Below the pieces are notes generated by a model. That model was given only the letters and a program-made list of their open reading frames with translations, did not search any database and was not told the DNA's origin. Position numbers and translations under genes: made by a program. A stretch of DNA of 63,423 bases, filler included, from Sphacelaria rigidula (lineage: Eukaryota): assembly GCA_964200075.2 (NCBI GenBank). It is 11 parts of 11 records of this genome, joined end to end, with 100 filler letters (N's around TTAATTAATTAA, not from the genome) between each part and the next. Parts side by side here need not be neighbours in the genome. Positions count along the whole stretch, not along the records: positions 17,326 to 23,000 come from CAXNAA020025352.1; 10 more parts are not named here. One strand, given 5' to 3'. This document shows, one piece after another, positions 1,862 to 57,649 of the stretch; position 1 is the stretch's first letter; every line of letters begins with the position of its first letter.

Positions 1862-2635
1862 CCCATCACCAGCAGTAGCCACGCGTGGGAGACATATACA
1901 CTCCACGTGCACAGCTCCCCCAGAGAGATACGCACAGCTATTTCTCCCAGAACCTCGCCGAGTAAGCGAGAATGGACCCATCGACGGGTAGTACGTACCA
2001 GCGCTGTCCAGCATAGTGGCCATTACTCGTAAGGTGCGTGGGTGTTGTCGCACGGTCGAAACGCGGACCGTCTATGACAAAGAGCAGCAGCAGCAGCTGC
2101 AGCATCGGTACCAGCTGATTCAAAAGCACCCCCAGCCGTACACATTCACTGGCAATAAAGATGCTGCTGCTGCTACTGCTGCTTCTTCTTCTCGTGCGGA
2201 AGGTCGTCCGCGTTTCGACGTGCGACAATACCCATCCACCTGGCGCGTTATTTTCTCCTCCCCACTTGAGATCGATTATGATATGTTTGCGTGTTGTTGC
2301 CCTCATGTTGTATCAGTATACTGTAGCATTTCGGTACAAGTACATTTCACTTGTTTTCCCCTGTATTGGACGCTGGGTATATTCTTTCAACGCCATCACC
2401 AGCAGTAGCCACGCGTGCGAGACACACCCGATGTGTACACCTCGCACAGAGAGACGTACACAGCTGAATCTTCTAGCACTTAGCCTGGTGAGGAAGCATT
2501 GACTTATCAGCGGGCAGTACGGATCAGCGCTTTCCGGCATGGTGGCCATCACGCGCAAGGTGCGTGGGCGTTGTAGCACGATTGAAACACGCACCGTTTC
2601 TCGGATGAGGAAAAATGGCAGCAGCAGCAGCAGTC

Positions 2636-4979: not shown

Positions 4980-6542
4980 ATCCAGTTGGAGGTTGCTGGC
5001 GCGTGTCCGGCCAGTTCGCTGGCACGTCGTGAGGCTTACATCCTTGGTAAATGGCTTCGAAGACGCTCGCCGTGTCGCCTATTTGATCACCGCTTCCGGG
5101 TAAACCACCGTCTGACACGACGAAGTCGCGCGCTTCCGCCAGCTTCACCTGGTGAAGGTTAGTGGGCATTTGGGAGAGTTAGACGATACAAGAGAACTAC
5201 GTAGCCGAATCAGTCCCAGGGTGGTTGGATCCAGGAAGTGCGATTTAGTGCAAAATCTACCCTGCCAGTCAGAAACGAAGGGTTGCTCCGGTCGGTCAGA
5301 ATAGAACCGCAGAATTGCATAAGGCCATCTGCAGAAGGCCTTCGGTGCAACTTTCCTAGCTCTGCTGCCTCTTTCGGGCCAAGCACCTTCGATCCATCGA
5401 CTCTTTGGGGCTCTGAGGGCGTGTCTTCGCACGTTCGTTTTCGATTGAAAAATTGATCTCATGGGCCCACCGCATTCACGTTCCTTGAAGGCTTCAACTC
5501 AAAATTTTAAACTAACGGCGCGCGGAGAAGAATGGAACGACGTATAAAACAATCGTTTGAGATTGAAAACATGCGGTCGAAAGGCACGAAGCGGCACTTG
5601 ACTCCTATCCTACAAATAACAGCCGATTTTATATTTTGGGGTTCAAACAAAGTATGGGGCTGAAGTGGCATATCTNNNNNNNNNNNNNNNNNNNNNNNNN
5701 NNNNNNNNNNNNNNNNNNNTTAATTAATTAANNNNNNNNNNNNNNNNNNNNNNNNNNNNNNNNNNNNNNNNNNNNCAATGGTCAAACGGCTAAGGCAAGC
5801 AACACATGAGAACGCCCCTTCCCCTTCCGGGCACTTACCTGTTCGTGACGTGATAGTTTAATTCTCATGTGCACATTGAAGTAATGGAGTGGCCACCTCC
5901 AGGGGGGGGAGGGTCTGGTTCTGCTTAGAAGTTATTCCACATCAACCCCAAGCCAGTATGATCTGATATCATCGAGACTCCGAAGTTCTTGAAATCAGCG
6001 GGGCAAATCCCACTCAGCAATATTCTGTATGTTTCCTTTGTCCAGATGTTGCGAGTATCAAGTCAAAGCCGGAACCCTGACCCAGTACAAAACTCGGTAA
6101 TGAACAATGTTTTTTACATGAGTCAAACCGACGAATGAGGCAAACATGTTTGTGGTCATATAAGATTCTCACAATATATACTACGTGTAGCATCAGATAT
6201 CTGCCGAATCCGTCAGCGAGAGTTGACGTTTTGATGTTTACGTGCTTGTTAGCCACGTGGAGAAAGAGCCATTCGTGCAGCTGAATCGAACAGTGAGGCG
6301 GTACACACATAATACTTGCATACAGATTTATGATTCATTGATATCCGGCCGTGACACTGATGCACAGCGGTTCCCCTGCAATACTGCACGAGACAGGCTT
6401 CATCTACTCTTGCCGTACGTTTCATATACATTTATTGTATCAAATGTATGTATATGTATATATATATACCATGATCGCATACTCGTATTCTCTTCCCATA
6501 ATGTCTTCACGACTTGCTCGCCCATGTTCGCTCTCATTTTAG

Positions 6543-11380: not shown

Positions 11381-11450
11381 TGGGGAGGGGCGGGGGGTGT
11401 ACTCATGATCATGCTTGCCATAGTCATCAGACCATTGACCTCGCATCCCT
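11381..11450 (-). mobile_element. Poly(C)-tailed retroposon 3' end, family A (cut by contig end)
   Basis: G-run + TGTACTCATGATCATGCTTGCCATAGTCATCAGACCATTGACCTCGCATCCCT. Confidence 0.8.
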
Positions 11451-12120
11451 NNNNNNNNNNNNNNNNNNNNNNNNNNNNNNNNNNNNNNNNNNNNTTAATT
11501 AATTAANNNNNNNNNNNNNNNNNNNNNNNNNNNNNNNNNNNNNNNNNNNNAGTGACAGGCAAACCCCCTCCGGGCGAGAGGGTGGTGCGGATGAAGTCGA
11601 GCGGGTGCTGCAAGCAGAGCTCAAGTACTGTCCGGGAATCAACGGTGGGTCTTGGGGACCCAACCTAGACCGCACGGAACAGACCTGCTGATAGCGTCGC
11701 ACGAATCGAAGGGAATATGATAGAAGTCAAACTCCTTTCTACTGAAAACGAAACTCGGACGTCAGGCGAAATGCCATAGTCAGACCAGGGCAACACATGT
11801 CTCGTCGGCTTTGTTCGAACATATCCTAGAACAGGGTAGGCAGGGCAGGGGTGATGGAGGGGGTAGGAAATGCTGCAGCAAAGCGACTACAGGCATAACT
11901 CATCCGCAGGTTGCCCCCATATATTCGTCGGTGGCAGGTGAGGAAGGGGTTATAGTACCGGGGCATGTTTTTTTTTTGCAGTTTTGTTGTTTACTGTCCT
12001 CCCGAAAAACTGGGTTTCCCCCCACTTCTCCCAAGTAACGGTAGTTGAAAAAAACAAACTAGACGCTAGATTTTCGGAGTAACCTATGGTCAGCTTTGAG
12101 TTCATCATCTCCGGATCTGG

Positions 12121-12226
12121 TTGAGCCTTTGGCGGCGAGCATGGGTCGTCTGTTGAACCGGCACCACTTTCACTCGAAAAAGGTATTCATGACTCCCATG
12201 GAAGACCCTCGCGGGCAAGGGGTTGA
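12121..12226. mobile_element. Degenerate copy of the ~105-bp piggyBac-like MITE
   Basis: ttgagcctttggcggcgag...tttcactcgaaaaaggta...cgcgggcaaggggttga aligns to the array unit. Confidence 0.6.
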
Positions 12227-12728
12227 GAAACTTTGGAACCTTCTCTCACATTTTTCGGAAGTTTTTTCGCTGAGGCTCATTATTATCGACACCGCTTCTT
12301 CGGTGATATCGGAATGTTTCGGACTTTGAAACCAGAATATTGCGGGGGGGGGGGACCCCGTCAATAATGCTCCGAATTCGGCAGATGTAAGTGCTGTAAG
12401 CCCCTAATTCGAATCATCACTGCAGATTGTGTCGTACGAAATGGGTCTAAGGCCAGTGTTATCGACACTGTTTTTTCCCAGGGATATCAGATTTTTTCAG
12501 AGGTTTCGGACTCGGCGTCAAGACTTCTCCGAGAATGAAGCGGCTTGATTCCTTCTCCGAAGCTTTATTTTTGGACAAGGCCGACAAATTCGAACTGCAG
12601 CTCAGCCCTTCGGACAGCTGCCCTGCGAATACACCGTGGCACTCGCAAGCATTCGGGAGCCATCAGGTACCTTGCCAATCTCGACACTTTCGGACCTCTC
12701 CGAAAAAACAATCTCGACAATAATGAGC

Positions 12729-15890: not shown

Positions 15891-16063
15891 TTTCTCATAC
15901 GTCCACTATGATAATAGGACAAAGAAAAAAATAGGGCTGTGAACCGGCTGCTCTTGCGAGTTAAGTTTGAAATGGCCGCAACAACGACCAGTATTATATC
16001 GATGTTTTCCCAGTTGATCGGCGAAGCCGAGCCGCAAACGCCCCCCCGCCCCACATTGGTCTT

Positions 16064-16120
16064 TTTTGACTATGGCATACATGATCATGAGTACACCCCC
16101 CCTCCCCCCCGCCCCCCCCG
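16064..16120 (+). mobile_element. Poly(C)-tailed retroposon, family A, extremely 5'-truncated
   Basis: ...GACTATGGCATACATGATCATGAGTACA-CCCCCCC; CCCCCCCGCCCC on both sides (possible TSD). Confidence 0.75.
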
Positions 16121-17325
16121 GCTGGTGAGGGAGCCTCGCTAGAGCGCCGCCGGAGGCGAGAAATATTGCGTTATTTGGCTTTTTTTTTCTGGAAAATGTA
16201 GAAAATTGTAGAAAATGTAACCCCCCACATTGAGGAGCTAAAGTCTCAGATGGCGTTCAAATCTCATTCAAAGTGGTGAGCGATTTGGAAATCATTTATT
16301 TGTAATAATACGCAGCAGCAGACTCTCCATGATGAGGAGAGGAGGATACAAACAAGCCAAGGCTCTTCATTTGTTATTGGGAAAGGTTCCACGGTTATTA
16401 GGACAAAAAATAATGATTCGTCAGGAAATTACTTGGTTTTAGTATAATAAGTTGACTCGTGATGAATGAATCCCCATGACTCATTTCAGCGTTACAACCC
16501 AGGTACACGCAGCCCAGACGCGTGGAATGGCGCAAAAGTTGCGTGGGACACCCCTTGGACCAGCGGTCAACTTTTGCCTCCCTCTCGGGCAATCAGGCAG
16601 AAGATATCGTGAATTTTGTGATTTTGAGTCGTGATGATTTGTCCTAACCATTGAAGGTTCTTGCGTTCTCGAAAAAAATGGTCGTTACCATACTAAAACG
16701 CCGTAAACCAGAGAAACATACATGTATATATGTATATATATTTCCACTTTTTTTGGTTCATTATTCCCTAGCGAGGTCCCGCACATTATTTCAATACACA
16801 AACATCAAACATGGGCCGGTAAGTGGTCTGCAAAGTACTGACAGGTGCACGCTTCAATTCTACTCTCATTTTTTGTTCGTAATAATGCAAGCATCTTTGT
16901 TATTAATTCATTATACTAAACTTGGTATAAACATAGCCGGTAACGGCAAACTCCAAATAAGCTGGATAAACTGGAGTCCTCATCACCAGTTCCAGTGAAA
17001 CTCCAGTTAGTTCCAGTTTCATCGCCAGTACAAACTGGTCCAGTTCACAGCCCAAAAAAGAAGTGGTTTGCGTCGTTGTTTCATATAATATTCATGTCCG
17101 GGCTGTCTTATTATGGTAGGTTGAAGAAAACAATGGTTAGCTCGAGAGTGACCAGAAAACCCCCTCCAAGAGACCCTATGTACCCCCCCCCCCCCCTAGC
17201 GTCCCGATTGTTTTTTTTTTTTTCTNNNNNNNNNNNNNNNNNNNNNNNNNNNNNNNNNNNNNNNNNNNNTTAATTAATTAANNNNNNNNNNNNNNNNNNN
17301 NNNNNNNNNNNNNNNNNNNNNNNNN

Positions 17326-17344
17326 ACTACTACTACTACTACTA

Positions 17345-17413
<69 letters not shown>

Positions 17414-17665
17414 ATGCTAATAATCATAATCATAATCATAATCATTATCATAATCATAATCATAATCATAATCATAACCATAATCATAATCATAATCATA
17501 ATAATAATCATAATAATAATGATATTGATAATGATGATAATGATGATGATAATGATAATGATGATAATGATGATGATAATGATGATGATAATAATCATAA
17601 TCATAATCATAATCATAATAATCAAAATCATAATCATAATCATAATGATCATAATCATAATGATA
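17326..17665. repeat. Compound (ACT)n + (ATC/ATA/ATG)n microsatellite
   Basis: Direct reading; it generates spurious poly-Ile/Met/Ser ORFs. Confidence 0.97.
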
Positions 17666-17954
17666 GAATATATGTTTTTTTCGAACAAACTAACAATAAC
17701 GCTAACCCTAACCCTAACCCCGACCCAAGGCGTACGGGCAAGGGGGGTGCATTGGTTCCCCTAGGCAAAGTGTGCGTTGGGGGACCTGACATCGACGCTG
17801 CAGGCGCCGATTTCGACAAACACACGTTCTGGACGAGCTGGGTCCACTGCTCACCTTCCCCAAACCATAATTTTTTCACATCTCTCTCGAGTCTGTCTAA
17901 AATCAAGTAGTCATGTTGTCAACCATAGATATACTACCAAAGCTTGAGGCCTAC

Positions 17955-18255
17955 TGATTTTTTTTCTCACATCGTGCCCAACAGACAGTGTAGAGCGACG
18001 ATATCGTGGTTACACAAAAAAAAAGCACTTCACGGTCGACGAGGGAAAAGGGACAGCTGAAGCCTTCTCGCGATAAAGAGAGAGGCGAGTACCACGGAAA
18101 GGAGGTGGAGTACCATGGCATGATGAAAAGTGAAGAAAAGATCCTGTGAATGTTGACATTCCTCCTGTGTGACCCCGACTGGTGTGCCCACGTTTACCGA
18201 ACGGTGTAAACTGGCACCCAGAATAGATGGGATGAACACAACACAGCACATCACA
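17955..18255 (+). mobile_element. 5'-truncated copy of the tRNA-derived SINE
   Basis: Matches ~8575-8850 (tttttctcacac...gtgcccaacag...ctcctgtgtgaccccg...acacac). Confidence 0.8.
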
Positions 18256-19372
18256 CATCCGTCTGAGTTTAGTTCTAGCGCTCACTTATTGAATTATGAC
18301 ACATGAATCGGGAGCACTTTCCGTGCTCCAGTGGGAAGGGGGCGGATGGGATTGGGAAGCACCTTCCTGTTGTTCCTGGCGTTCCGTAATTCTTGTCCCC
18401 TAGACAACGTCCACGAGATGTCACTCGTCATCTTGTCATCAAGGAAATACCCAATCTATTCGGCACTAGCGATCTCCGTGTTCCCCACACCACTACATTC
18501 GCGGACCTAGAATTCTACAACGAGGGCACTGACACGGTGCGTGCGATGGCCAGTCTTCTGTGGGGGCCTACTTGTAGTATTCCCACATGATCCGTTATTT
18601 TGGTCGGAATCTTCTCACTGGATTATGTTCAGGATGTCCTGGCTCCGTTTGGGGGATGGCAAGTGGGTAGGTACGGGAGCACGGTGAAAAAACGGGGTAT
18701 GATACACCCGAACGCCAACCCAGGGCATGCCCAGAATCCACCGGCGAGGGAGGGGTGGGTAAAACGAGTATCCCAGACAAGCTGTGCGTTTGCAGAGCTC
18801 GAAAGAGATTCGAGTGAGAACAGCGTCCTTGCACATGCTGGGCGACCAGTCGGAGTCATTCATCCCACCGGAGATCCGCATCTGGTAATCCGCCTTGAAA
18901 TAAATCGGACGAAAAACTCGCGCAAACTCTGCTTTGGCTTGAGGGATAAGTGAGGCTCACGGTTGGTACATACGGCTTCATTATGGCGGAGTTTTGAACA
19001 CGTGAAGAACGGTCTGTCCGATGTTTTCGGTCAGTGCTGTTTGTCCTTGTCTAACTGGATCCAGAGACCCTTCCACAGACGAAATTTTGCCTATGGTCTC
19101 GGCGATCGAAATCCGTGAACGGAACTTGTGTATGGGTGCACGAGTACTGTGCTTTTTTCTGCCGAATTCCCCTGTCCTCCTCCGTCTGTTTGTGTACGTT
19201 TTTTTTTTAGCTGTTAGAGGATTTGTCAGCAATCTATAATTCATGATTGTTGTTTATTGCAATTGCTATAATTCGTAGTTTTATGTTTACCCTTGGCCCT
19301 TGAACAGCGAGCGTCGCCTCGGAACAGTTTTACAGGCTGACAGTCCGGAGACATTCAGGGGTTTTAGAGGCC

Positions 19373-19420
19373 GGGGGGGGGGGTGTACTCATGATCATGC
19401 ATGCCGTAGTCATAAGACCA
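19373..19420 (-). mobile_element. Poly(C)-tailed retroposon, family A, 5'-truncated
   Basis: G11-TGTACTCATGATCATGCATGCCGTAGTCATAAGACCA flanked by CCGGGGGGGGG and CCGGGTGGGGG. Confidence 0.8.
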
Positions 19421-19974
19421 ACCGGGTGGGGGGCGGGAGGTGTCTGTCCACAGAGCAGCCGAAACGCTCACCAAGTCAACCATGTGTGTTTGGAAGATTC
19501 CCGCGGAGGATTCTAAACCAGGAATGAGGCCCGAGAGGCGCGGAATAACCGTTCTGAGCAATCACGGCCGTCAAAATGAGCACGTAGTTCCCCTACAGGT
19601 GGACTTCTTCGCTGTCTACTGGAATATCTCATCTTGGTCATCGCCGGTCAACCATAGATGTCATGGGTACAAATAACTTATTTGGTACTCTGCTCGAGGT
19701 CTGTGCCGCCTGTTTGACGCCTCCTGTGTTGCCAGCATAGCTTCACAGTCCTAAGTGTTGTTGTTGAACACTAAGCAGATGCATCAGCAGCATGCAGTGA
19801 ATTGTGTTCGGTGGAGAGCGATGGCGCACTGACTGTTTCTTGCCGTTGTATCCAGCGGAGACATACCGCACACATACTCTGTACGCTATTGACTACACGG
19901 TCAAAACCGGTCAGGGGTTCTCCGAAACTAATTTCTATACAGATGCCCAGGATCCACATGATGATGAAGAAACG

Positions 19975-20213
19975 TGTTGTGTGTGTTGTCCCTTCCATTC
20001 TGGACGCCGGTCTACACCTTTCGGTATATGTAGGCGCAGCAGCCGGGGTCACACAGGAGGAAGGTCAACACAGGAGCTTTTTGTTTTTTATTTGTCTTTA
20101 GTACCGCACCTTCCTTCTGCGGTGCTTGTGTAGCGAGAGGAAAGAGCTGTTCTGAACCCCGAATGTGGGATAATCCATCCCAGTCCACCTGCGGGGGGGT
20201 CGCTGTCTGAGGG
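19975..20213 (-). mobile_element. SINE-tail-bearing element with a different upstream body
   Basis: 19975-20128 is the 3' half of the tRNA SINE; 20131-20213 instead matches 36851-36928. Confidence 0.65.
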
Positions 20214-20303
20214 TTATTTTATTTTATTTTTTTGTGCAATTAAAAAGAAATCAGGTCTTGTTTGTTTCTTCTTGTTTTCTATTTTTGTATAATTTTGTAT
20301 ATA

Positions 20304-21199
20304 CAGTAGTCAGCGTCAGAAGTATGCAGAGTTCATTTCTTAGTTTCTCAAAGATTTTCCAAATTTGTTTCGCTTGCCACCGCTCATCACAGTGACTGTT
20401 GGATGCCAAAATATGCGCATCTAGAGATATTTCAATCCTCTTGACAAATATTGAAAGAGAAATACCTGCGATCAATATTGAGGGACTTACGGGCTTGACC
20501 GGTCTTCGGGGATCCTGCGAAAGTGCAACCGCAGGTTCTAGCTTTTCGGTATTTTCGGTGGACCGACTCGATCCCGATCATATAAGTGAAGACTCAAAAA
20601 AAATTATATATATTTTTTAATTCCTCCTATTCACTGCGCTTAAGCCGGAAAACTATGTTTTGTGGACCACTTACGGTCAATGACACCCTCCTGATAAACG
20701 GTGTCTTTACTCCGTATCCCCCCCACAACACCAACTTGATTCGAGCACGGTCTGCTTATTTCGCCGAAACTGTCGACGCTAGCACGTTCGAGTGCCCATG
20801 GAAAATATTATGCGAAAACCCCCCGAAAAGAGGCCATTCACAGGAAATGCTAGATTGAGGTCTGTGCACTATAGGAGGGAAACACGATCTCGATAGTTCT
20901 TGTGAAGAATTGCATACGTATTAATTTATCTCAAGATCTGCCGTTTCGTTGCGGAAAAGCCGGAAACCGGTTTTTATTGGGCCAAAAATGATCAAAAACA
21001 CCCTCCTAATAAACGGGGTATCTAGTCCGTATCGGCCCAAAAACACCATACTTAGGCACTGCAGTTTGAGTGTGGCTTACGCTTTCCCCCTAAATCTGCC
21101 GGCGCTAGCACTTTCAAGTAGTAATAAAGAATATTATTCGAGAAAAACTCAAAAACTACAACAAGTACGAATTCCGAAAACTTCTGATGCTGACTTTAT
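20304..21199. mobile_element. Tc1/mariner-type non-autonomous element with an internal ~310-bp-period duplication
   Basis: TA-CAGTAGTCAGCGTCAGAAGT ... ACTTCTGATGCTGACT imperfect TIRs; internal sequence similar to 48171-48719. Confidence 0.6.
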
Positions 21200-22196
21200 A
21201 TTTGATTGTCTTTCCCCTGTTCAAAAAATAAAACCAACCATCCATCCTCAAACAATCTTCAATTAATTAATTAATTAGTTAATTATATATTAATATATAT
21301 ATTATTATATATGGTTCTATTTTCAATCATATAATTTTCTTCATTTTATAGTTGCGAAGTATATATCTACCAACCCTCCGCGCCCCCGTTTTGTTTTTGG
21401 TTATCAATATCCGCCCCAACATGCGCGCTCGTACGCACACTCTCACAGAGTTTATCGGGATCAACGACCATCACACGCGATGCTCCGGGAGATGTCAGGC
21501 TGAGTATCGACGGCAGTCAAGATGAGGGAAAGGGGGAGTCGGCTGCCGTTGCTCAGGCTAGAACGCTGTTTGCTCAAGGGTTGATTTCGGCCGAGGAATT
21601 GGAGGCGGTTGTTCAGAAGGATCAGGTGCACCTTTCCTTTCATTTTTTTTTTTTTCTGTTGTGTTATAAAGTGAGAATTTCACACTCTCCCTCAGCCGTG
21701 ACGAATCCGCATCTTCAAGGAATGAGTAAACTACCTTACTGTCAATTGTCCGAATTGAAGTCGTTTTTTTTTTTGCGTGTGGTTTCCCGCATGTCTTCAT
21801 TTACTCACGTCGGAGTGCAAGATAAAAGCATGTGAATGCGTTGTTCTTTTGAAAAATTCGTTCCCATTTGTCTTATTTGTTACCATGTCAAACTATTCAT
21901 CAATTTGTTGGTCGCTTCTTGTATACATTTTTTTTTTTTGTCATTTTGACTCGTTTTATTTTTCATACGCACGAATGCACAAGACGAGCAAAAAATTATC
22001 ACATCCAGGCTTCTTCAATCAAGTGGTACAGCAGCAGCACATGTGTTTCCGGCTGAGCAACTTCGTATAGTACGTCTATTTTTGTTTTTTGCGTTTTTTT
22101 GGGGGGCGAGGGCGGGGGAGGGGACACTTTCAAAACCTTCCCTTCCTTGGGACTAGTCCGTGGTCTGAACGGTCTCATCAATTCCTCCCCCCGGTG

Positions 22197-22961
22197 AGGA
22201 AATTACGAAAGGGCGGGCTGGAATAAGGTGGGATAGAGGAGTCGAGAAAGTATGGAAAGATATAAGAGGAAGCCAAGACGAAATACTGCCCTTAGATAAA
22301 GGCGGGGGGCACAAAACAAAAGTAAGAGTCATGACAAGAAATAAGGGAGAAAGAAGCGCTACGACGCGAAGTAGACGAGGAAGAACACTTGGAGATATGC
22401 GGAGGGTTCAGAGAGGGGATGAGGATGAAGACATATTTGCGTGGCCCAATCTACGTGGCGAAAAAAATGAAACCGCGATTTCGGGTGGGGAACCTGGACC
22501 TCCCGGAAAGAATAAAGAGATATACCAGGAGTCGTAAGGAGGAAAAAGTAGACGCACAGAACTGCCCCTGTGGCGAAGCACCAGAAAGCAGAAGTTATAT
22601 AGTTGCAGAATGTGAACAATACAAGGAGGAACGGGACGTGCTAAAAGGGAAAATGTGGGACGTGGACGAAGGTGGGATGAAAACGTTTGATGCATTAGTT
22701 AGTAGGGAGAAAACAATGGTTATACTTGAAGATAGATGGTGGTCACAGACGGCGAAGCAGGACGGGGATAAGATATGTAAAAAGGTTTTTGCGTAATGTA
22801 TGGAAGAAACATAATGAGCGCCGGAATGTTGAAGGTGTCTCTGTGAGAAGTAGGAACGATGCTCCGTCTGGAAAGGGATACGTGGTCAATGGTCGAACGA
22901 CGAGGGCAAGCAATGAATGAGTACGCCACCCCCCCACCCCCCACCCCCCCCCCCCCCCCCC
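22197..22961 (+). mobile_element. 3' end of a LINE-like non-LTR retrotransposon (frameshifted ORF C-terminus) ending in poly(C); family B
   Basis: KGRAGIRW..V motif, RFRVGN..L, degenerate zinc knuckle CPCG-x3-ES-x2-Y-x4-C-x2-Y-x3-R and FLRNVW, as in LINE RT C-termini. Stop at 22918-22920 followed by GTACG and a ~36-nt C-rich run. Confidence 0.8.
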
Positions 22962-24705
22962 GGCCCGTACCCCACCCGCAGCCCTCGAGCTAGTGGTAGC
23001 NNNNNNNNNNNNNNNNNNNNNNNNNNNNNNNNNNNNNNNNNNNNTTAATTAATTAANNNNNNNNNNNNNNNNNNNNNNNNNNNNNNNNNNNNNNNNNNNN
23101 CTTTTGAAAAAAGGTTGTCATGTTCTAGGAACGGGATACCGAACATGCCCCGGATAGCAACCCCACCCACTAGGAGAAGCACCAATTTTTCCGGATATCC
23201 CCCCCCCCCCCCCCCCAGATCAATGGGATATCAACCCTAGGGACCCATCCCTATTTCACTTCAGGGATACCCTCGCGTGTGCTTGTCAAACGACTAACAC
23301 CCCGGGTTGAGGTTCCACCCGACACATTCAGAGTAAGACACTAACAAGTCCGTGCGGCCCCATGTGATTGGGCGATAAGTTCGTGCTGTTGATACGACGG
23401 ATTCATCCTTGAACGGCGAATTCGGCCATTATCTTCAGTTCGTCGAAGTTACGTTGTTTTTTCTTTTCAGCAATGGAAATGTCAAGGGTGATAGCAGACG
23501 TACTCGCCTTGAGTGACTTCATGACGTCTGCAAAATATCTAGAATATCAACCCGACAACGGGTTTTGCTGTAGGCTGATACGCTATCTGAATGAACGTTT
23601 TCCTTTTCCGAGGTCCTGAATCACTTGGAGCATCGGAGCTCAAACGTGGCTAAATGTAGGGGCTTTTGGGGACTCGGATTGTAGATACCTACGGTTCGAG
23701 CTCGTAGAACGTGATCGAATGATGTGCCTGTGTCTTTCGTGGCAGGTCGCCTGATATTTGACCGTAGGATCAACTCATCCATGCAAACAGTCGCCGTGAA
23801 GTATCGTGTTTCATATCTGCCGGACCCCGTAGGGTGATGGTCATTGGTTTCAAAAATGCTTACAACACCGCCCGGTTGGCGTCTGATAAATTTTGCGCTG
23901 CCATTTGATCTAGAATGACTGTTTACCCTGTCTCCCAGTGTGAGCGGGGTGTCCTCAGCGAAGGGGACGAAACAGTCTCTTCGAGGCGAACAGCACGAAC
24001 AACAGCCGAAATTGACAGCAACATGGGTCATATCATTTCCAAACTCACCCCGCTTAGCGCCGCGCTCTCCGATTGGTCACTCGGCCGCTTGCATTGTTTC
24101 ACACTATGAATATACATCAAGTACAGTGGGGCGGATGTAGAACGGTCTGCTTGCGGAACGTGTACAAAATATTGTCCAGAATGGCCACGCCCTTCCGGAA
24201 CGAAAGGAATCCTGGATTCGCTGCTCGAGTTTTGAGAGATAAAACCTGAATATTTCAGGAGAGGGGTACATCGATCGTTCAAAGGGCGCGACAAGCGTAC
24301 ATCCCTCATGAGCCAAACGCGAAAGGTTGTATTTTTATATACCAACAAAAACAAACTGCCCGGACGGTTTATTTCCAGGTCGTGGGTACCTGGTTTTTCG
24401 CTATTCGCTTTTGGAAAATATGAGCAGACAACGGTTGGTGTAAGTCAGTCGAATGGGTCACGATGCCTCTCAAGAGAAGGGAAATTCCGGTTATGAAGCC
24501 GTTCAAATGGGCAATTCCTTCGTCTTCCTAAATGTGCAGGTTCGTACTCTCGAACCTCAAGTACATGTCGCCGGAGAAAATTTCCAATCTTTTAACCCGG
24601 GATCAGGGCTTATGGCTTATTGGAGCGTAGAATGCAACCGGGGTTCGTGACATATTCAGGAGTTACGTTGACGCTGCCGGGTGTCTCTTCGTATTTTTGG
24701 CGCAG

Positions 24706-26166: not shown

Positions 26167-28560
26167 CTACGGAAAGCATGACCTAAAACATCTAGAGCTG
26201 ACAAAAGACACACACGAAAACATAATATGTGCCTTCTCGCTGTCCTCAATGTTCATCAAGACACGGTGATGCCTTTTGAACAGCGTGATCGGGAGCGGCT
26301 TTGTAATAATATCAGCGTGTTGCCACTCTGGATCCACATGTACGATCCATACTGCTCCCGTCCTAACCAAGTCCCTAATAAAGTGCCATCTTACATCAAT
26401 ATGCTTGCTACGACCCGAGCTAAGTGGGTTGTCGGCGAGAGCCTTAGCCCCCTCGTTGTCCTCATGAAGAACAATATCGTACTCCATTTGTCGTCCCAAC
26501 ACAACCCTTGGTCGTAGGAAAGAGAGTATCGACCTGACAAGCATACACTCCTTCGCCCCTTCGGCCATAGCTACATGCTCGGCCTCGGTGGTTGGTAGGG
26601 TGACGCAGTGTTTCGTTCGACTAGTACTCAATACTGCTATCCCTCCGCACATCACCGCTACCCCGAAAAATGATCGCCTGTTTGTCTCTTTCTTGGCTTA
26701 GTCAGCATCACAGAAGACTGAGAGCACACTTTCCCCTGAACTGAAAGTCAGACCGTAGTTTCTAGTCGTGTTCAGGTATACCAAGACTTTCAAACCCCTT
26801 GCCAGTGTCTTTCGCATGAGTCATGTGATTGACGGGCCAGGTCCCGGGCTGCATTTGCTATGTCAGGCCTGGTTACCCCAGCCAACCACATCAACCTCCC
26901 TACGGGACTTCGGTATGGTCTATTTATGACCTTGTCTCCTTGCTTCACCTGCCCTAGGTCTGCTGATACTGAGGGAGGAATATCAGAAAACCCATGGCTT
27001 CAAAACGCTTGAGCATGGTGTCGATAATATCGTCTGGTTTACATACATGGTACCTCTTCCCCAGTCCCTCTCTCTGGCACACCCCATGTACCACTGGACT
27101 TCACCTCGATTGTTCGTCGGAAATTTTGTTTTGAGGATGTCGCAGACTTTCTCTACTCTTTTTGCTTCACCCCCAATCAGGATATCGTCTACATGCACAA
27201 CTAGTATGACACATACACACCCCATTTCCTCCTCCTCGTATACACACAGGTCAGCTTCACTTTGTGACATTCGTGCATCGTCCATCAATATTTTGTTCAG
27301 GAGGAGGGACCATTGTCTCCCTGTTTGCTTGATGCCGTAAATGGATCTCTCAAGTCAAACTGTACTACCCGTCAAGGGGCCACACCCGTCTGGGAGCTTC
27401 ATGCAATCATACGTGTCCATTTTTCCTCATACAAAGGCCTGGGTAACGTCGAAACGATACAGTGGTAATCCTCTCCGCACTGCCACGACCATGACCAATT
27501 GTTCTGATGTCATGGTTGGGGTAGCTGCAAACTTCTCGAAATAGCCAAGAGCGACTATCTGGCCAAATCCAGTCTACCCTTCGTTTGGTGATTTCACCGT
27601 TTGCATCGGTTTTCCAACTGAACACCCATCTTGCCGTAATGATATTTACTCCTTTTTCGGGATTTCTTCTCTTGTGGATATACCTGCGGTTTCATGCCCA
27701 TTCAGTTCTGCACGCATGACACTCAGCCATATTTCCTTATATTCCGATTGTTCAATGTATCTTACTGTTACAGGGGTGGGGGGTTGGTATCTCTCACGTC
27801 GAGACCGACGGGGGAACGCGAACAAAAGCTGGGCTCTTCCTCTGTTCCGTTTTCGACCGAAAAACAAAATACTCCTACCACACAAAAGTCTCCTGGATCA
27901 GCAGGGCCGCCCTGCCTCCCACCTCTGGTCCGGCTTCTGCAGTGATCAGGTCCATCATCCCGCACCTATCCTCCGCTATTCCATAGAGTGCAGTTTCCGA
28001 TTGAGCCCTGGCTTGAGCCCTCGACAATCACGCGGGAAAACTATTCTTCTCTTTCCCACGCCCGTATTTCCTCCAGCTCCTCTACCGCCGATGCTAGCTG
28101 CCGCTCTTGTCGCACTGCGCGTGCGGCCGGCCATTCGCGAATGCAGAGACAACTCGTCGTCGAGTGCAAGACGGCGTAGCTCCGTCCTTGGGAGTTCGAG
28201 AGCTCCACTGCCCCCCCCATCGTTGCGCTCGGGGGTGGCGACGGTTGTCGGCGACGATGTTGGCTGAGTAGTTGTTAGTGATACCGCAGGTGAATGCGGT
28301 ACCGGCAATGCGGGTGGCTGTTCTGGTGTTCTTGCCGGCGGTGTCGGCGGTGTCGGCGGTGTCGGCGGCGATGTCGGCGCTGCGGCTGTCAGCGTTATCG
28401 GCGCCGTTGTCGGCGCCACGGCTGTCGGCGTCATGAGGGGTGTTGTCGGCGCCGAGCCCGGGTTATCGATGAGATGCTGAACTGGGCTTCGTAAGCCCCC
28501 CCCCCCTCCCGCCTCTACTGCCCACTCACCTCTAGACTCTTGGGTTGGCGTCGAGTGGCA
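26167..28560 (-). mobile_element. Decayed Ty1/copia LTR retrotransposon pol (RT + RNase H), with stops and frameshifts
   Basis: RNase H motifs TTEAEH, EDNEGA, RSKHIDVRWHFIRD, QHADIITKPL; RT motifs WVFSWKTD, ADLCVY, VHVDDILIG; Pro/Thr-rich linker upstream. Confidence 0.95.
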
Positions 28561-28925
28561 ACGGCGCTGTAAAACAAGCCACCAAAACCTAGACAAATGT
28601 ACTGTCACGAAATAGAAAAGCTAACCTCCTTCTCATTCAATCTACTATAACACTGCCCGGACATAGACAGGAAATAGATAAGCTAACCCTCCTTTGTATT
28701 TACCCTACTATAACACAGCCCGGACATAGACATGAAATAGAGAAGCTAACCCTCCTTTTTACTTACCCGACTATANNNNNNNNNNNNNNNNNNNNNNNNN
28801 NNNNNNNNNNNNNNNNNNNTTAATTAATTAANNNNNNNNNNNNNNNNNNNNNNNNNNNNNNNNNNNNNNNNNNNNCCTCCCCCCCCCCCCCCCCCCCCCT
28901 CCCCCCCCCCCCCCCCCACCCCCCG

Positions 28926-34350: not shown

Positions 34351-34550
34351 GGGGGTGTACTCATTATCATGCATGCCATAGTCATCAGACCATCGACCTC
34401 GCATCCCTACACAGCCGGGACGGAGCACCCCGGGTTTTCGCCTCACCAGGCTTTCACTCAAACCACCAAGCGAGCAGCGCCGTGGTGTGTTCGGCGAGTC
34501 GCATAAAGGGTGAGCTGCATCCTACTAAGACTGTTCGACCCGAAGCTTAC
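34351..34550 (-). mobile_element. Longest family-A poly(C)-tailed retroposon copy (200 bp, cut by contig end)
   Basis: Shared 3' end plus an upstream body unrelated to the LINE ORF; a degenerate + strand copy lies at ~35316-35468. Confidence 0.8.
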
Positions 34551-34716: not shown

Positions 34717-36095
34717 CTCGAAAAAAAAAAACAGTTAATCGATCGGGCACGAACTATTCGAAGAAAACAAAAGACGGTTCATCACTACCAAACAGTCATC
34801 AGTCGTAGCTAGCCTGTGACCACGGAAGGCGTCCGCATCGGATGCCCAGTACGAATGTACCGCGCAGATATCGGAACGGTTTTTAATGTGCAAGACAACA
34901 ACAACAAATAAACGGTGAGAGAAAAATAGATAGACCTCAAGTCCGGTCAAACGGTCGAGGCGCGGATGAGAAAGAGAGAGAAATATGGAGAGAGCGACGT
35001 CTACACCATGAAGAATACCGCAGGTGATACCCTGATTATAGGACCCTTAGCAAGGCGATGAGAAATCCGAATTCGATTATTCCTCGTCAACTGCGGCAGC
35101 CACGCCACCGACAGATTCGTCTCTGCCGCAATGTCTCTTGGAAACCGTTCGGGAAAACTTTGTCTTGTAGCAATGCAAGTACGGCCTTGCGCATGGAGGA
35201 AATCGGGGTTGGGTTCCTTGCCACCCCACCAAACGAACTCGATCATCTCAAGGTACAGCATCCCTCCCCCCCCCTCCCCCGAGGCTGTCATCTATATGCA
35301 AGATAACTACAGTAGCAAGCTTCGGGCCGAACACACCACGGCGCTTCGCGCTCGGTGATTGACTGCGATACTGGTCCGGGAAAACCCGGCGTGCTCCGTG
35401 TCGGCTTCGTAGATATGCGACGTCAACAGTCTTACGACTACGACATGGAATGACAAGTAAACCGCACCACTTCATCATTCCTCCATCACACCGATTTCGT
35501 CTTGCCTCAACCGAAATGACTCCACAACGTGTGAAAAAGGTGATAGATCCTATACAGACACTCGTGGTACATTGCATACCAGTTGTGATGTACAGGGTAG
35601 TGCCTGCCATCGGTCGAAAAGCTGCTTGACCCTCGCACGGTGACGGCAGCCCACTTGAGTTCACATACGCCGATGCGGCGCTACTTCGTGTATGACATTA
35701 CGCGAAGGACTAGTCCTGGAGTAGTAAAGATTCCAAAGTTCTTCGCGGTCAAAGGCTTGACCGCTGGAGCGCTAGGAATCGTTTTGGGAACAACATCGCT
35801 GGGGGAGTCTCAATAACGGTCAACAAGTCCCACGCCATGGTGACGGAATAAATTCTTGGAACAAGAAAAAAGCGCCTTGTGCAAATGTTTCCAATTGGAA
35901 GGAAGGGAAAACAAAAATATAACTCCGTGATCTTTGTCCAATGTTTTGTCTTTGCGCTGAACCATTTCATGCGTGGGGGAAAAAAAGTAATTTCGTTCGG
36001 GCTCGAGAACAACAAAAAAAGACATCACTGGTGAGAGAAATCGAAGTGCAGATTTTGAGCTACACACAAAAGCTGTGCCCGGTCTGCAGCGCTGC

Positions 36096-36170
36096 GGGGG
36101 GGGGGCGTACTCATTTGTTGCTCGCCTTAGTCGTGTGACCATTGATCACGCATCCCTTTCGAGACGGAGC
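36096..36170 (-). mobile_element. Family-B poly(C)-tailed insertion with TSD
   Basis: AGCGCTGCGGGGGGG at 36088-36102 and 36168-36182. Confidence 0.85.
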
Positions 36171-40425: not shown

Positions 40426-40481
40426 AATGGTCTTATGACTATGGCATGCATGATCATGAGTACACCCCTCCCCCCCCTCCC
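40426..40481 (+). mobile_element. Family-A poly(C)-tailed 3' end at contig start
   Basis: AATGGTCTTATGACTATGGCATGCATGATCATGAGTACA-CCCCTCCCCCCCCTCCC. Confidence 0.85.
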
Positions 40482-41124
40482 GGAGGGCATTTTTTCGAAA
40501 ATTGTCATAATTTTTTCAAGTTTTTTTTGTGATTTGTTTTTTTGGGGGGGGTGTTGAAATTATCGAAAGAAATTGATCAACACTGACAAAACCGAAAGTC
40601 TGGCGGGTTTTGCAAGATTCGTACATTTGCTTCTACTCCTTGCCCGCTCTGCTCCGATGAACTCGGATGCCGGCAACTCTCCCACACATCTATGTACAAT
40701 CCACTAGCGCACGGTAGCGACAGCCGGTAGCCAAAGTAGCAACATTACCTCACGCTTCACCAAATTTGCCCAGACTACCAGTAGCTGTAGATAGTCGAGG
40801 CACACGACACGGAACATAAACCCATAAAAAATGTAATCATGGCAGGTGATGAGCTTGGAGGAGCGGTGCGTCCGTCATCTCAGCAGTCTCCAGGCCAAGA
40901 ATCTCTGTACACGGCAGCTGACCGCATCCGCCAACGCCTCGGCAATAAACTAGGGGGCAGTAGGCTGGGTGTCCCCCCCCGCCCCCCCTCGAAAACTCGA
41001 ATTTTCGATTTTGAGGCCTACGTGTCCCGAAATATATTCTTGACAGATCCTTGGCCCAACTCTCGAAATTGAGCCTAGATAAGGTTCGCAAACCACAAAC
41101 CCGCGTCTAGGCCGGCTCAGCTCG

Positions 41125-46019: not shown

Positions 46020-46100
46020 GGGGGGGGGGGGGGGTACTCATGATCCTGCATGCCATAGTCATAAGACCATTGACCCCGCATCCCTATATAGCCGGGGCGG
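46020..46100 (-). mobile_element. Family-A poly(C)-tailed 3' end at contig end
   Basis: G15-TACTCATGATCCTGCATGCCATAGTCATAAGACCATTGACCCCGCATCCCTATATAGCCGGGGCGG. Confidence 0.85.
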
Positions 46101-50431: not shown

Positions 50432-50508
50432 AGGGGGGGGCGTACTCATTTGTTGCTTGCCTTTGTCGTTTGACCATTGACCACGCATCCCTTTCGATAC
50501 GGAGCACC
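50432..50508 (-). mobile_element. Family-B poly(C)-tailed insertion with a perfect 17-bp TSD
   Basis: GCTGTTTGGCTAGAGGG at 50415-50431 and 50509-50525. Confidence 0.9.
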
Positions 50509-51660
50509 GCTGTTTGGCTAGAGGGGGCACCGACTGCATGAGGTACATAAGGTCCTCGGGTAGTCCATGCCCGGCTACAAAATATCGAGAGGACCATCTA
50601 GAAAAGGCAACAACGCCTGTCCTTTCGAAGTGCTTCCACGCCCTGACTGCCGATACCTCCGTGTCACCCATATAACATTGTGCTATATACCACGACTTGA
50701 AGTTGTTGCCTACAGAGTACCGGAGAGAGGTGGGTTAATTCCTTGAGACCACGGGTTCATCTCAAGGAAGAGGAGGGGTTTAAAATGTGATAAATGAAAA
50801 GAAAAAGAGTCGTGTGGGAGATGTTGTTAGCGGCAAGGGCGATCGATGATAGTAACAAAAACATGCTACAGACATTGCACGGCTACGATCTGTAGTGGCA
50901 ATTTTATGTTTCTCTGCTGTAGTAATGCGTGGTTGGTCTATGACGACAGAGGGAAAAGGGGTGCGGCAGACCTCCCCGGAGGAAAAAAAGAAAAATAATC
51001 TTGTCGCCTTTATGAAACTTGAGCAATTTCCCCCCTCGTATTCTGTCAATGCATCCGCCCTGCACCGTACATGAGGCCTCCACTGACCCGCGTCACTCAG
51101 GAACGGTCGACATGCCACCCACTGCACACCCTATTTTGCCCGCTATCCTCATCACTCTCAGTAGCCCATGCCCCAGAGTGACTTAAGGCGATCCCCGATA
51201 CTATACAGCAGATCCGTAGACAGCAACGGCTGTGGAATTGCTGGAGAGTGAGCTGCCGCGAAAACGAAACATGTGTAAAGTATTGCGCTGCACCATACTG
51301 TAAACAGGTGGGCAGCCAAGAGTAGACAATACGCCCCATGTCCCCAGTTTGCTTTCGTCACTCTCATTAGCTCAGCACCTGCAGAAGCCAGAGCAGCATT
51401 CGTACTACGCAACACTGCTGGCTGCCGCATCATATGCGAAGTTGGAAGCTGTCAATACCACTTGCTTCAGTTCTTGTCGTTGAGAATTAGATCCACCTGG
51501 CTGACTTCCAAAGAAAGATCCGCCTCTAACTTCAAACAAATTCACATTTCAGGTCCAGACTTACAAATCTCGAGGGAAGAATCCGTCGCCGGAGTACATT
51601 CCAGAGAGCTTGGCAACCCTATTAAAGGTTACAGGGATTTCTCCGCAATGGACCACACCT

Positions 51661-51764
51661 GGTCTCTAGTGGAGTAGTAACGGTGCTCCGTCTCGAAAGG
51701 GGTGCGTGGTCAATGGTCAAACGACCAAGGCAAGCAACAAATGATTACGCCCACCCCGCCCCCC
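51661..51764 (+). mobile_element. Family-B poly(C)-tailed 3' fragment
   Basis: Aligns with 22835-22940 of the LINE fragment and ends ATGATTACG-CCCACCCCGCCCCCC. Confidence 0.8.
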
Positions 51765-51975: not shown

Positions 51976-51995
51976 TATTATTATTATCATTATTA

Positions 51996-56717: not shown

Positions 56718-56802
56718 TGCTCCGTCTCGAAAGGGATGCGTGGTCAATGGTCAAACGACTAAGGCAAGCAACAAATGAGTACGCCCCCCCCCCTCCCCCC
56801 CC
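56718..56802 (+). mobile_element. Family-B poly(C)-tailed insertion with TSD
   Basis: C8-A4-CCAGC at 56701-56717 and C8-A6-CCAGC at 56795-56813. Confidence 0.88.
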
Positions 56803-57580: not shown

Positions 57581-57649
57581 GGGGGGGGCGCACTCATGAT
57601 CCTCCATGCCGTAGTCATGTGACCATTGACCTCGCATCCCTACAAAGCC
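57581..57649 (-). mobile_element. Family-A poly(C)-tailed 3' end at contig end
   Basis: G8-CGCACTCATGATCCTCCATGCCGTAGTCATGTGACCATTGACCTCGCATCCCTACAAAGCC. Confidence 0.8.

What the first reader, a model, noticed from the sequence alone, without database searches (positions are those of the whole stretch)
22197..22961. LINE-like retrotransposon ending in poly(C) instead of poly(A), with almost no 3' UTR
Seen: a decayed ORF with LINE C-terminal features (GR..RW motif, CPCG zinc knuckle, FL..VW) runs to a TGA at 22918-22920, followed only by GTACG and a ~36-nt C-rich run. The same 3' end occurs at 5776, 36096(-), 50432(-), 51661 and 56718. These copies always stop at GAGTACG-like + C-run and vary in length at the 5' side. 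Established: 5' truncation with a fixed 3' end is the signature of target-primed reverse transcription, and such elements normally end in poly(A) or A-rich short repeats. Inference: this clade uses an oligo(C) RNA end. I do not know of a described poly(C)-tailed LINE, but I cannot search.
Basis: partly seen in the sequence, partly recalled or inferred. Interest (0 to 1): 0.9.

Follow-up and report, generated by a model that had tools for sequence, protein, structure and literature searches.

The report
Algal LINE retrotransposon with oligo(C) tail
This is a broken, front-truncated copy of an abundant algal jumping gene (a LINE) that ends in a run of C instead of the usual run of A and inserts at C-runs, a real but already catalogued trait of the RTE-X LINEs of brown algae.

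Summary
Window 22196-22914 is a decayed, 5'-truncated copy of the last 240 codons of a LINE ORF. Its stop codon (22918-22920) is followed by GTACG and a C-rich run. A profile of the last ~70 nt finds 14 copies in the window, and 13 of them run straight into at least 5 C; none has an A-rich tail. Three loci from other assemblies end the same way. Full-length relatives encode one 1360-aa protein with an AP endonuclease and a reverse transcriptase. Six of 7 copies with both junctions visible have a C-run in the 30 nt upstream (background 3%). They are flanked by 8-19 bp target-site duplications that begin with C, and some tails hold more C than the target supplied. This fits target-primed reverse transcription from a G-run primer paired to an oligo(C) template end, like L1 with poly(A); the RNA end itself was not tested.

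The novelty claim fails. The curated Ectocarpus TE library (Genome Biol 2025;26:320, Supplementary Material 3) lists RTEX-1/RTEX-2 as "single EN-RT ORF; (C)n 3'", "TSD C-rich", with short non-autonomous derivatives sharing the 3' end. The closest named proteins here are from Ectocarpus. Verdict: a new member of a known kind, of modest interest.

The parts
22196..22925 (+). 5'-truncated, decayed copy of the LINE (A type). It covers the last ~240 codons of the single EN-RT ORF, with two frameshifts, stop TGA at 22918-22920, then GTACG.
   Evidence: tblastn with P0172, residues 1121-1359, about 60% identity in 3 frames. Translations. Loose-end consensus before 22200 in 38 and 34 contigs continues the ORF in other copies.
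22926..22961 (+). Oligo(C) tail (CCA C7 A C6 A C18). Its last Cs plus GG repeat the CCCCCCGG found just upstream of the copy (22188-22195), a putative 8-bp TSD.
22188..22195 (+). Upstream copy of the putative target-site duplication, CCCCCCGG.
5776..5824 (+). A-type 3' end, cut at its 5' side by the piece boundary. Tail is CCCCTTCCCCTTCC.
36096..36170 (-). 65-nt A-type copy plus C10. TSD CCCCCCCGCAGC(GC) lies on both sides (upstream copy 36171-36184).
50433..50509 (-). 69-nt A-type copy plus C8 T. The 16-17 bp TSD is CCCTCTAGCCAAACAG(C).
51673..51764 (+). 77-nt A-type copy plus CCCACCCCGCCCCCC. The TSD is only approximate.
56718..56802 (+). 66-nt A-type copy plus C10 T. The TSD is CCCCCCCCAAAA(AA)CCAGC, with the upstream copy at 56701-56717.
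16058..16119 (+). 38-nt B-type copy plus C7 T. The TSD is CCCCCCCGCCCC, with the upstream copy at 16041-16052.
19373..19421 (-). 38-nt B-type copy plus C11. The upstream flank is CCCGCCCCCCACCCGG.
34351..34550 (-). Longer B-type copy ending in C5. It is probably non-autonomous, because upstream of the shared ~70 nt it does not resemble the A-type coding sequence. Its 5' side is cut by the piece end.
35281..35470 (+). Old, decayed B-type copy with a degenerate tail CCGCACCAC. It is preceded by a C-run at 35262-35280.
11382..11450 (-). B-type 3' end plus C6GC4TC4, cut by the piece end.
40426..40480 (+). B-type 3' end plus CCCCTCCCCCCCCTCCC, cut by the piece start.
46020..46100 (-). B-type 3' end plus C15, cut by the piece end.
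57581..57649 (-). B-type 3' end plus C8, cut by the piece end.

Best explanation
Window 22196-22961 is a dead, 5'-truncated copy of a very high-copy non-LTR retrotransposon of an alga. The closest named proteins come from the brown alga Ectocarpus.

The active element encodes one long protein, with an AP-type endonuclease followed by a reverse transcriptase and a C-terminal Cys/His motif. The ORF runs almost to the end of the element: TGA, then GTACG, then a run of C.

The element most likely belongs to the RTE-X group. The Ectocarpus members of that group are curated as '(C)n 3'' with 'C-rich' TSDs.

Proposed mechanism:
1. The endonuclease nicks the target at the 3' edge of a G-run on the bottom strand, which is a C-run on the element's sense strand.
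2. [quoted passage not shown]
3. The RT, which probably recognises the conserved ~65-70 nt 3' module, primes cDNA synthesis there (target-primed reverse transcription).
4. A second nick 8-19 bp away yields target-site duplications that begin with C.
5. Early termination gives 5'-truncated copies.

This is L1's poly(A)/T-rich-primer logic with C/G in place of A/T. It is also the mononucleotide version of the simple-repeat tails of RTE and RTE-X LINEs.

Shown here: the copy anatomy, the C tails, the C-rich targets and TSDs, the protein domains in relatives, and the shared 3' module in a second, probably non-autonomous type.

Inferred: RTE-X membership, pairing of primer and tail, recognition of the 3' module, and that the C-run is transcribed from the donor copy rather than added.
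For: 1. LINE identity. P0002 (the window ORF) has 788 relatives at E<=0.001. The relative P0172 is 1360 aa, with Exo_endo_phos at 170-414 and RVT_1 at 740-989, and it aligns to window 22196-22914.

2. The same 3' end in intact elements. L001 and L002, from two other assemblies, have open 144-codon frames ending ...TKASNK, then TGA, GTACG and C8 or C10. P0172 ends with the same residues. L003, a distant decayed copy, ends in CCCGCCCC.

3. Tail. 13 of 14 window copies have at least 5 C directly after the conserved end, and none has an A-rich tail.

4. C-rich targets. 6 of 7 copies with both junctions in view have a run of at least 5 C within the 30 nt upstream, against 3.0% of random 30-mers (binomial 4.5e-9). 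The exact repeats shared between the two flanks are 8, 12, 16, 5, 12, 12 and 6 nt long and begin with C.

5. The tail is more than the TSD. There are extra C10T (56718), C7T (16096), C8T (50433) and C3 (36096) between the element and the downstream TSD, and about 28 nt extra at 22926-22953.

6. High copy number and truncation. 8897, 10290, 947 and 827 contig pieces from four runs lie on 22163-22927 and almost none on the flanks. Other copies continue 5' of 22200 with ORF sequence.

7. Shared 3' module. The B-type copies share only the last ~65-70 nt with the A type. This parallels RTEX-N1/N2_Ec32, noted as '60 bp 3' end 83% RTEX-1/RTEX-2'.

8. Published parallels. RTEX-1/2_Ec32 are curated as 'single EN-RT ORF; (C)n 3'', TSD 'C-rich', 5.5-5.9 kb. 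All 6 green-algal RTEX families tabulated end in simple repeats, not (A)n (PMC3747384, Table 3, passage seen).
Against: - No RNA evidence. All runs found are assembled contigs, none is on record as RNA, and the read-laying tool skipped 22922-23000 as a repeat.
- RTE-X membership was not tested against named RTE-X sequences. Repbase and the paper's FASTA supplements could not be read.
- Because the TSDs start with C, the boundary between tail and TSD is ambiguous in every copy. Homopolymer length is also error-prone in assemblies.
- The cross-pair control for shared repeats is inflated by C-runs (own mean 10.1 nt against 7.2 nt for mismatched flank pairs). TSD support therefore rests mainly on the non-C parts (GCAGC, TCTAGCCAAACAG, AAAACCAGC).
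- One copy (51673) has no clear C-run upstream and only an approximate TSD.
- No secondary structure is supported for the 3' module. The covariation term is -0.01 and single-sequence z-scores range from -1.8 to +3.2.
- The 5' ends of the short copies cluster (four A copies within 12 nt; two B copies at the same base). Simple random truncation does not predict this.
Confidence: 0.8

Rival explanations
1. The element RNA ends at ...TGAGTACG (or ...GTACA) with no C tail. All the Cs come from the target, because the endonuclease simply prefers C/G homopolymers.
For: Every TSD that can be read begins with a C-run, and 6 of 7 upstream flanks carry one. At least part of each downstream C tract is therefore target sequence. 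The copy at 34351 has only C5.
Against: In 4 short copies the downstream tract holds more C than the upstream TSD copy: C10T, C7T, C8T and C3 extra. At 22926-22961 the tract is 36 nt against a C6 target. Ectocarpus curators list '(C)n 3'' as part of the element consensus.
Confidence: 0.1
2. The C-run is not copied from a genomic (C)n. It is added enzymatically. Either the RNA is tailed with C after transcription, or the RT adds untemplated G to the nicked DNA end before copying the RNA.
For: Tail length varies widely, with C-rich tracts of 5-41 nt, and tails are interrupted by single A, T or G. In 3 copies a single T sits between tail and TSD, and in 2 of those 3 the number of Cs after the T equals the target's C-run exactly. 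This hints at events at the priming step.
Against: There is no evidence for such an activity here. Variable, imperfect tails are equally expected from slippage on a templated homopolymer. This is the accepted explanation (from general knowledge, not a call) for the simple-repeat tails of RTE, CR1 and I-type LINEs.
Confidence: 0.07
3. The C-runs are a sequencing or assembly artefact, for example poly-G read ends of two-colour chemistry, and not part of the genome.
For: Homopolymers of C/G are far over-represented in the window: 137 overlapping matches to C12 with up to 1 mismatch, against 0.17 expected. The finding lies near the end of a piece.
Against: The runs are internal, with unique sequence and matching TSDs on both sides. 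They follow one specific conserved sequence in 13 of 14 cases. The same junction occurs in three other assemblies and in the manually curated Ectocarpus library.
Confidence: 0.01

Closest known systems
RTEX-1_Ec32 / RTEX-2_Ec32 (RTE-X LINEs of Ectocarpus; Genome Biol 2025;26:320, Supplementary Material 3)
   Same: Both have a single EN-RT ORF, a (C)n 3' end and C-rich TSDs. Both are the most abundant LINE group of the genome and are accompanied by short non-autonomous derivatives that share 60-100 bp of the 3' end and can lie in tandem. Here, relatives have a 1360-aa APE+RT ORF, and the window shows C tails and C-rich TSDs, a B type sharing ~65-70 nt and a tail followed directly by another truncated copy (table 5c). 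Ectocarpus proteins are the closest named relatives.
   Different: The species is different. The window ORF is about 38% identical to the Ectocarpus protein P0177 but about 60-70% identical to unnamed ENA proteins. I could not see the Ectocarpus consensus sequences, so the homologous Ectocarpus proteins are not shown to be RTEX-1/2 themselves.
RTE and RTE-X LINEs with simple-repeat tails, e.g. Ectocarpus RTE (CAA)n and green-algal RTEX (CA)n, (CAA)n, (CCAT)n
   Same: Single ORF with APE then RT, a very short 3' UTR, a tail of a short tandem repeat rather than poly(A), and SINE-like partners that share the LINE's 3' end (PMC3747384 passages).
   Different: The repeat unit here is one base (C). 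The target sites themselves carry the same homopolymer, so that primer-tail pairing resembles L1.
Mammalian L1 (poly(A) tail, TTTT/A target)
   Same: A homopolymer tail, targets whose primer strand is complementary to the tail, TSDs of similar length that begin with the tail's base, frequent 5' truncation, and insertion into earlier tails. The L1 features are from general knowledge, not from a call.
   Different: C instead of A. There is no evidence that the tail is added by a polymerase as poly(A) is. The 3' ~70 nt are conserved and shared with a non-autonomous partner ('stringent' type), unlike L1. There is one ORF rather than two.

Membership tests
Non-LTR retrotransposon (LINE) with AP endonuclease | Reverse transcriptase (RVT_1) domain in the element's ORF | tested here: met
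   Not present in the window copy, which is truncated. The relative P0172, which aligns to window 22196-22914, has RVT_1 at 740-989, E 9.8e-31. P0174 and P0177 have it too.
Non-LTR retrotransposon (LINE) with AP endonuclease | AP-type endonuclease N-terminal to the RT | tested here: met
   P0172 has Exo_endo_phos at 170-392 (E 3.4e-12) and Exo_endo_phos_2 at 279-414. P0174 is alike.
Non-LTR retrotransposon (LINE) with AP endonuclease | Fixed 3' end, variable 5' truncation, TSDs of variable length, no terminal repeats | tested here: met
   There are 14 copies with the same 3' end, with lengths of 38, 65-77 and 729 nt. TSDs are 8-19 bp. Other copies continue 5' of 22200. Caveat: the 5' ends of the short copies cluster.
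RTE-X clade (as curated in Ectocarpus: RTEX-1/2_Ec32) | RT phylogeny or best match with named RTE-X elements (Repbase RTEX-*) | not testable with these tools
   No Repbase or Dfam is available. The paper's consensus FASTA files are not readable. The Atlas gives only generic APE+RT clusters.
RTE-X clade (as curated in Ectocarpus: RTEX-1/2_Ec32) | Single EN-RT ORF, about 5.5-5.9 kb | tested here: inconclusive
   P0172 is one 1360-aa ORF on a 4903-nt contig and P0174 is 1328 aa on a 5649-nt contig. This is consistent, but no complete element with both ends was seen.
RTE-X clade (as curated in Ectocarpus: RTEX-1/2_Ec32) | (C)n 3' terminus | tested here: met
   13 of 14 window copies and 3 of 3 outside loci.
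RTE-X clade (as curated in Ectocarpus: RTEX-1/2_Ec32) | C-rich TSD | tested here: met
   6 of 7 upstream flanks have a run of at least 5 C, against 3% background.
RTE-X clade (as curated in Ectocarpus: RTEX-1/2_Ec32) | Non-autonomous partners sharing 60-100 bp of the 3' end | tested here: met
   The B-type copies share the last ~65-70 nt only. Upstream they are unlike the A-type coding sequence.
L1 clade | Poly(A) tail; two ORFs | tested here: not met
   No A-rich tail in 14 of 14 copies. Relatives have a single long ORF.

The most novel reading that the evidence does not exclude
The oligo(C) is not simply transcribed from the donor copy. It is made at each round, either by C-tailing of the element RNA or by the RT extending the nicked G-run before it engages the template. 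A single T repeatedly sits exactly between tail and TSD (C10-T, C7-T, C8-T), and this could be a footprint of that step. That would be a homopolymer tailing or priming chemistry not described for LINEs. Its by-product, a fresh C-run at every insertion, would make the family create its own targets and could explain the genome's excess of C/G homopolymers.
Probability: 0.07. Interest if true: 0.75.

Novelty: new member of a known kind. Interest (0 to 1): 0.3.

Why it matters
It shows that the (C)n-tailed, C-run-targeting LINE noted for Ectocarpus is not peculiar to that species. The same 3' end appears in this alga and in three other assemblies.

The window also provides junction-level detail that the published table does not give:
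- TSDs of 8-19 bp that begin with the C-run.
- Tails longer than the target's C-run.
- Very short copies of 38-77 nt.

This makes the family a natural counterpart to L1 for asking whether pairing between the tail and the nicked target drives priming. For genome annotation, it explains about a third of the long C/G homopolymers in this window: 12 of 35 runs of at least 7 C are tails or TSDs of this family. As a discovery it is modest, because the trait is already in a curated library.

Tried and rejected
- Whole genome: none is held for this window, so copies could not be collected genome-wide and no full-length copy from this organism was seen.
- RNA 3' end: the look-up of sequencing runs listed no holder on record as RNA. 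Four runs are only guessed to be RNA, and all runs are kept as contigs. Read laying skipped 22922-23000 as a repeat, so the tail was not examined. Nothing can be said about expression or RNA ends.
- RNA structure of the 3' module: single-sequence folds gave z-scores from -1.8 to +3.2. The alignment fold had a covariation term of -0.01. A small hairpin, GGUC-N4-GAC, keeps its stem while the loop varies, but no structure is claimed.
- Pfam on 146 window ORFs: only a Copia RVT_2 fragment was found, and nothing for the LINE C-terminus.
- More DNA from other collections:
  - The metagenome pattern scan gave 2 loci.
  - The genome-contig scan gave 1 distant locus.
  - The viral-contig scan gave none.
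  - The records behind L001 and L002 could not be extended.
- Clade placement: the Atlas search gave only generic APE+RT clusters. Kapitonov et al. 2009 is not held.
- Literature: these searches found no paper on a C-tailed LINE: 'non-LTR retrotransposon' + 'poly C tail', 'LINE/retrotransposon/oligo C/3 end', and 'poly C' + 'target-primed reverse transcription'. The search tool cannot take 'poly(C)' with brackets, so such phrases may be missed. The main text of PMC12477816 does not discuss the tail ('C-rich' occurs 0 times); it is noted only in the supplement.
- Earlier findings of this scan: nothing was found by place, sequence or words.
- The match at 2137-2152(-) (3 mismatches) was not recovered by the profile search and is treated as chance.

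Full report
**What the window is**

The 63,423-nt window is not one contiguous stretch. It consists of eleven pieces of 5674-5675 nt joined by N44-TTAATTAATTAA-N44 spacers. No whole genome is held for it. The finding lies at the end of piece 4 (17326-23000), with only 39 nt of flank after the C-run. Repeats that recur in several pieces are therefore abundant in the source genome, and some copies are cut by piece edges rather than by biology.

**The observation**

- Two overlapping frames and a third short one carry a decayed ORF.
- It contains ...NCPCGEAPESRSYIVAECEQYKEERDVL... and ends ...NDAPSGKGYVVNGRTTRASNE, with TGA at 22918-22920.
- GTACG follows, then CCA C7 A C6 A C18 up to 22961.

The terminal 16-mer recurs. 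It gave 6 matches with up to 3 mismatches against 0.42 expected, and 0 of 100 shuffles reached 6.

In-window blastn shows that the other copies share only the last 75-92 nt with this one. A profile built from nine 3' ends finds 14 copies in the window.
- Six are of the finding's type (A): 5776, 22858, 36106, 50441, 51682 and 56716.
- Eight are of a second type (B): 11399, 16067, 19385, 34357, 35399, 40426, 46034 and 57590. These share only the last ~65-70 nt.
- Thirteen of the 14 have at least 5 C directly after ...GAGTAC(G/A), in C-rich tracts of 5-41 nt.
- The fourteenth (35399) is an old copy whose end has decayed to CCGCACCAC.
- None is followed by an A-rich tail.

**It is a LINE**

The ORF piece P0002 has 788 relatives at E<=0.001 among 1.84 billion representatives, mostly short unnamed fragments. 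The only named eukaryotic ones come from Ectocarpus sp. CCAP 1310/34, a brown alga.

Walking to longer proteins gave P0171 (340 aa, 69% identical). From there I reached P0172 (1360 aa) and P0174 (1328 aa), which carry Exo_endo_phos, Exo_endo_phos_2 and RVT_1 in that order.

tblastn of P0172 against the window gave the following.
- It covers 22196-22914, matching residues 1121-1359 at about 60% identity across three frames.
- The short copies match the last 17-23 codons.
- No RT or endonuclease segment of this family lies in the window.

Laying contigs of four public runs on 21500-23000 puts 8897, 10290, 947 and 827 pieces on 22163-22927 and almost none on the flank. A loose-end consensus before 22200, seen in 38 and 34 contigs with agreement 0.8, continues the ORF (...PAIVDRAVWKK, as in P0171). 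The family is therefore very abundant, and this copy is truncated at about 22196-22200.

**The same end elsewhere**

A pattern from the conserved 3' end found two outside loci.
- L001 is an ENA marine metagenome contig. L002 is JAAUYH010127814.1.
- Both have uninterrupted 144-codon frames ending ...NGAPSRK(G/R)CVVNGQ(M/T)TKASNK. TGA, GTACG and C8 or C10 follow, then unrelated sequence.
- P0172 ends with the same residues. This ties the 1360-aa APE+RT ORF to this 3' terminus.

A distant decayed relative on a contig filed under a bacterial MAG (L003, 33% identity) ends in CCCGCCCC.

The 3' UTR proper is five bases long.

**Target sites**

Seven copies have both junctions in view.
- Copy 36096: the 65-nt element is flanked by CCCCCCCGCAGC(GC).
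- Copy 50433: flanked by CCCTCTAGCCAAACAG(C).
- Copy 56718: flanked by CCCCCCCCAAAA(AA)CCAGC.
- Copy 16096: flanked by CCCCCCCGCCCC.
- Copy 19373: the flanks are CCCCCCaCCCGG and C11GG.
- The finding itself: flanked by CCCCCCGG.
- Copy 51673: only an approximate repeat.

Six of the seven upstream 30-mers contain a run of at least 5 C, against 3.0% of random 30-mers of the window (binomial 4.5e-9).

A mismatched-pair control for the longest shared string is inflated by the C-runs themselves (7.2 nt against 10.1 nt for true pairs). The non-C parts of the repeats therefore carry most of the weight.

The downstream C tract is longer than the upstream one in several copies. The excess is C10T at 56718, C7T at 16096, C8T at 50433, C3 at 36096, and about 28 nt at the finding. 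Cs are therefore inserted with the element and not only duplicated from the target.

**Mechanism**

The anatomy fits target-primed reverse transcription.
1. The endonuclease nicks at the 3' edge of a bottom-strand G-run.
2. The oligo(dG) end pairs with an oligo(C) at the template's 3' end.
3. A second nick 8-19 bp away gives TSDs that begin with C.

This is L1's arrangement with C/G in place of A/T (the L1 features are from general knowledge).

The A and B types share only the last ~65-70 nt. In the B type a 5-nt insertion shifts the frame and puts a TGATGA stop about 35 nt before the end (my reading of the alignment). This suggests that the 3' module acts as an RNA signal that a non-autonomous partner borrows, as in 'stringent' LINE/SINE pairs (PMC3747384, passages seen).

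I could not support a defined secondary structure, and I have no RNA data. The pairing, the module recognition and the templated origin of the tail are inferences.

**Comparison with what is known**

Genome Biol 2025;26:320 (PMC12477816) characterises the Ectocarpus mobilome. I read passages of its main text and part 1 of 3 of its Supplementary Material 3.

| Family | Curators' note |
|---|---|
| RTEX-1a_Ec32 | 'single EN-RT ORF; (C)n 3'', 5867 bp, TSD 'C-rich' |
| RTEX-2_Ec32 | '(C)n termini/TSD', 5582 bp |
| RTEX-N1 (604-607 bp) | non-autonomous; '60 bp 3' end 83% RTEX-1_Ec32/RTEX-2_Ec32'; 'can be present in tandem' |
| RTEX-N2 (188 bp) | non-autonomous; 'similar 3' tail' |
| Ectocarpus RTE | (CAA)n |
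| Ectocarpus CRE | (CA)n |
| Ectocarpus Chlamys PLE | (A)n |

- RTE-X is the largest LINE group there, with 16,418 copies and 3.41% of the genome.
- The main text does not discuss the C tail ('C-rich' occurs 0 times).
- Ohshima 2013 (PMC3747384, Table 3, seen) lists six green-algal RTEX families. All end in simple repeats and none in (A)n.
- Every curated feature of the Ectocarpus RTE-X elements that I could test is met here.
- The one defining test I could not run is the RT phylogeny, or a comparison with named RTE-X sequences.

**Verdict**

The feature is already catalogued for brown-alga RTE-X elements, so this is a new member of a known kind.

Two things remain open: how the C-run is made and used at the RNA level, and some junction details. 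A T lies exactly at the tail/TSD boundary in three copies, and the 5' ends of the very short copies cluster. Three literature searches found no paper on this mechanism, within the limits of a search tool that cannot take 'poly(C)' with brackets.

Noticed in passing
window 5676-5775, 11451-11550, ... 57650-57749 (ten spacers): The window is a composite of 11 pieces of 5674-5675 nt, joined by N44 + TTAATTAATTAA + N44. Features at piece edges are cut artificially, and adjacency between pieces means nothing.
   Followed up: yes
window 56784-56802, 16096-16119, 50429-50440(-): A single T sits between the inserted C tail and the downstream TSD in three copies (C10-T, C7-T, C8-T). In two of them the number of Cs after the T equals the target's C-run exactly. 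This may be a footprint of the priming step; it is unexplained.
   Followed up: partly
window 36170, 50509, 56718, 51673 (A type); 16058, 19421 (B type): The 5' ends of the very short copies cluster. Four A copies start within about 12 nt of each other (lengths 65-77 nt), and both 38-nt B copies start at the same base. This suggests an RT stop site or discrete mini-elements rather than random truncation.
   Followed up: partly
window 34351-34550(-), 35281-35470(+): The B-type element has about 100 nt of its own sequence (...CCGAACACACCACGGCGCT...) upstream of the shared 3' module. It is probably a SINE-like non-autonomous partner. The origin of its 5' part is unknown.
   Followed up: partly
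window 17183-17196, 23199-23216, 12344-12354(-), 28879-28924, 40973-40988, 60148-60167: Further long C-runs are not preceded by the A/B 3' module (e.g. ...GACCCTATGTA-C14...CCGGATAT-C18). They may be tails of other C-tailed families or plain targets. Of 35 runs of at least 7 C in the window, 12 are tails or TSDs of the A/B family.
   Followed up: no
window 26986-27354(-): A Ty1/Copia reverse-transcriptase fragment (RVT_2, E 1.9e-11). It is the only Pfam hit above its curated threshold among the 146 ORFs of at least 100 aa.
   Followed up: no
window 55115-55644; also 36-100, 54941-55005, 771-869, 12126-12224, 53792-53890: A satellite of 108/214-nt units (about 5 copies), with dispersed related copies in other pieces.
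   Followed up: no
window 20193-20199(-) and 36911-36917(-); 115-123(-) and 62678-62684(+): Two further dispersed repeat families, each with an internal C7-C9 run in a conserved context (...GCGACCCCCCCGCAG(A/G)TGGACTG(A/G)GATGGA...; ...ACACAGAGCG.A...ATC.TCCCCCCCAAACTC...).
   Followed up: no
window 17326-17665, 51976-52321, 52658-53045: Long AT-rich microsatellites, (ACT)n, (ATAATC)n, (TAT)n and (TAATAA)n, give the low-GC dips in the composition profile.
   Followed up: no
P0005; L003: Fragments of this eukaryotic LINE are filed under bacterial records: a 330-nt contig of Hyphomonas oceanitis SCH89 and a 29-kb contig of a Verrucomicrobiales MAG. This is most likely algal DNA contaminating those assemblies.
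   Followed up: no
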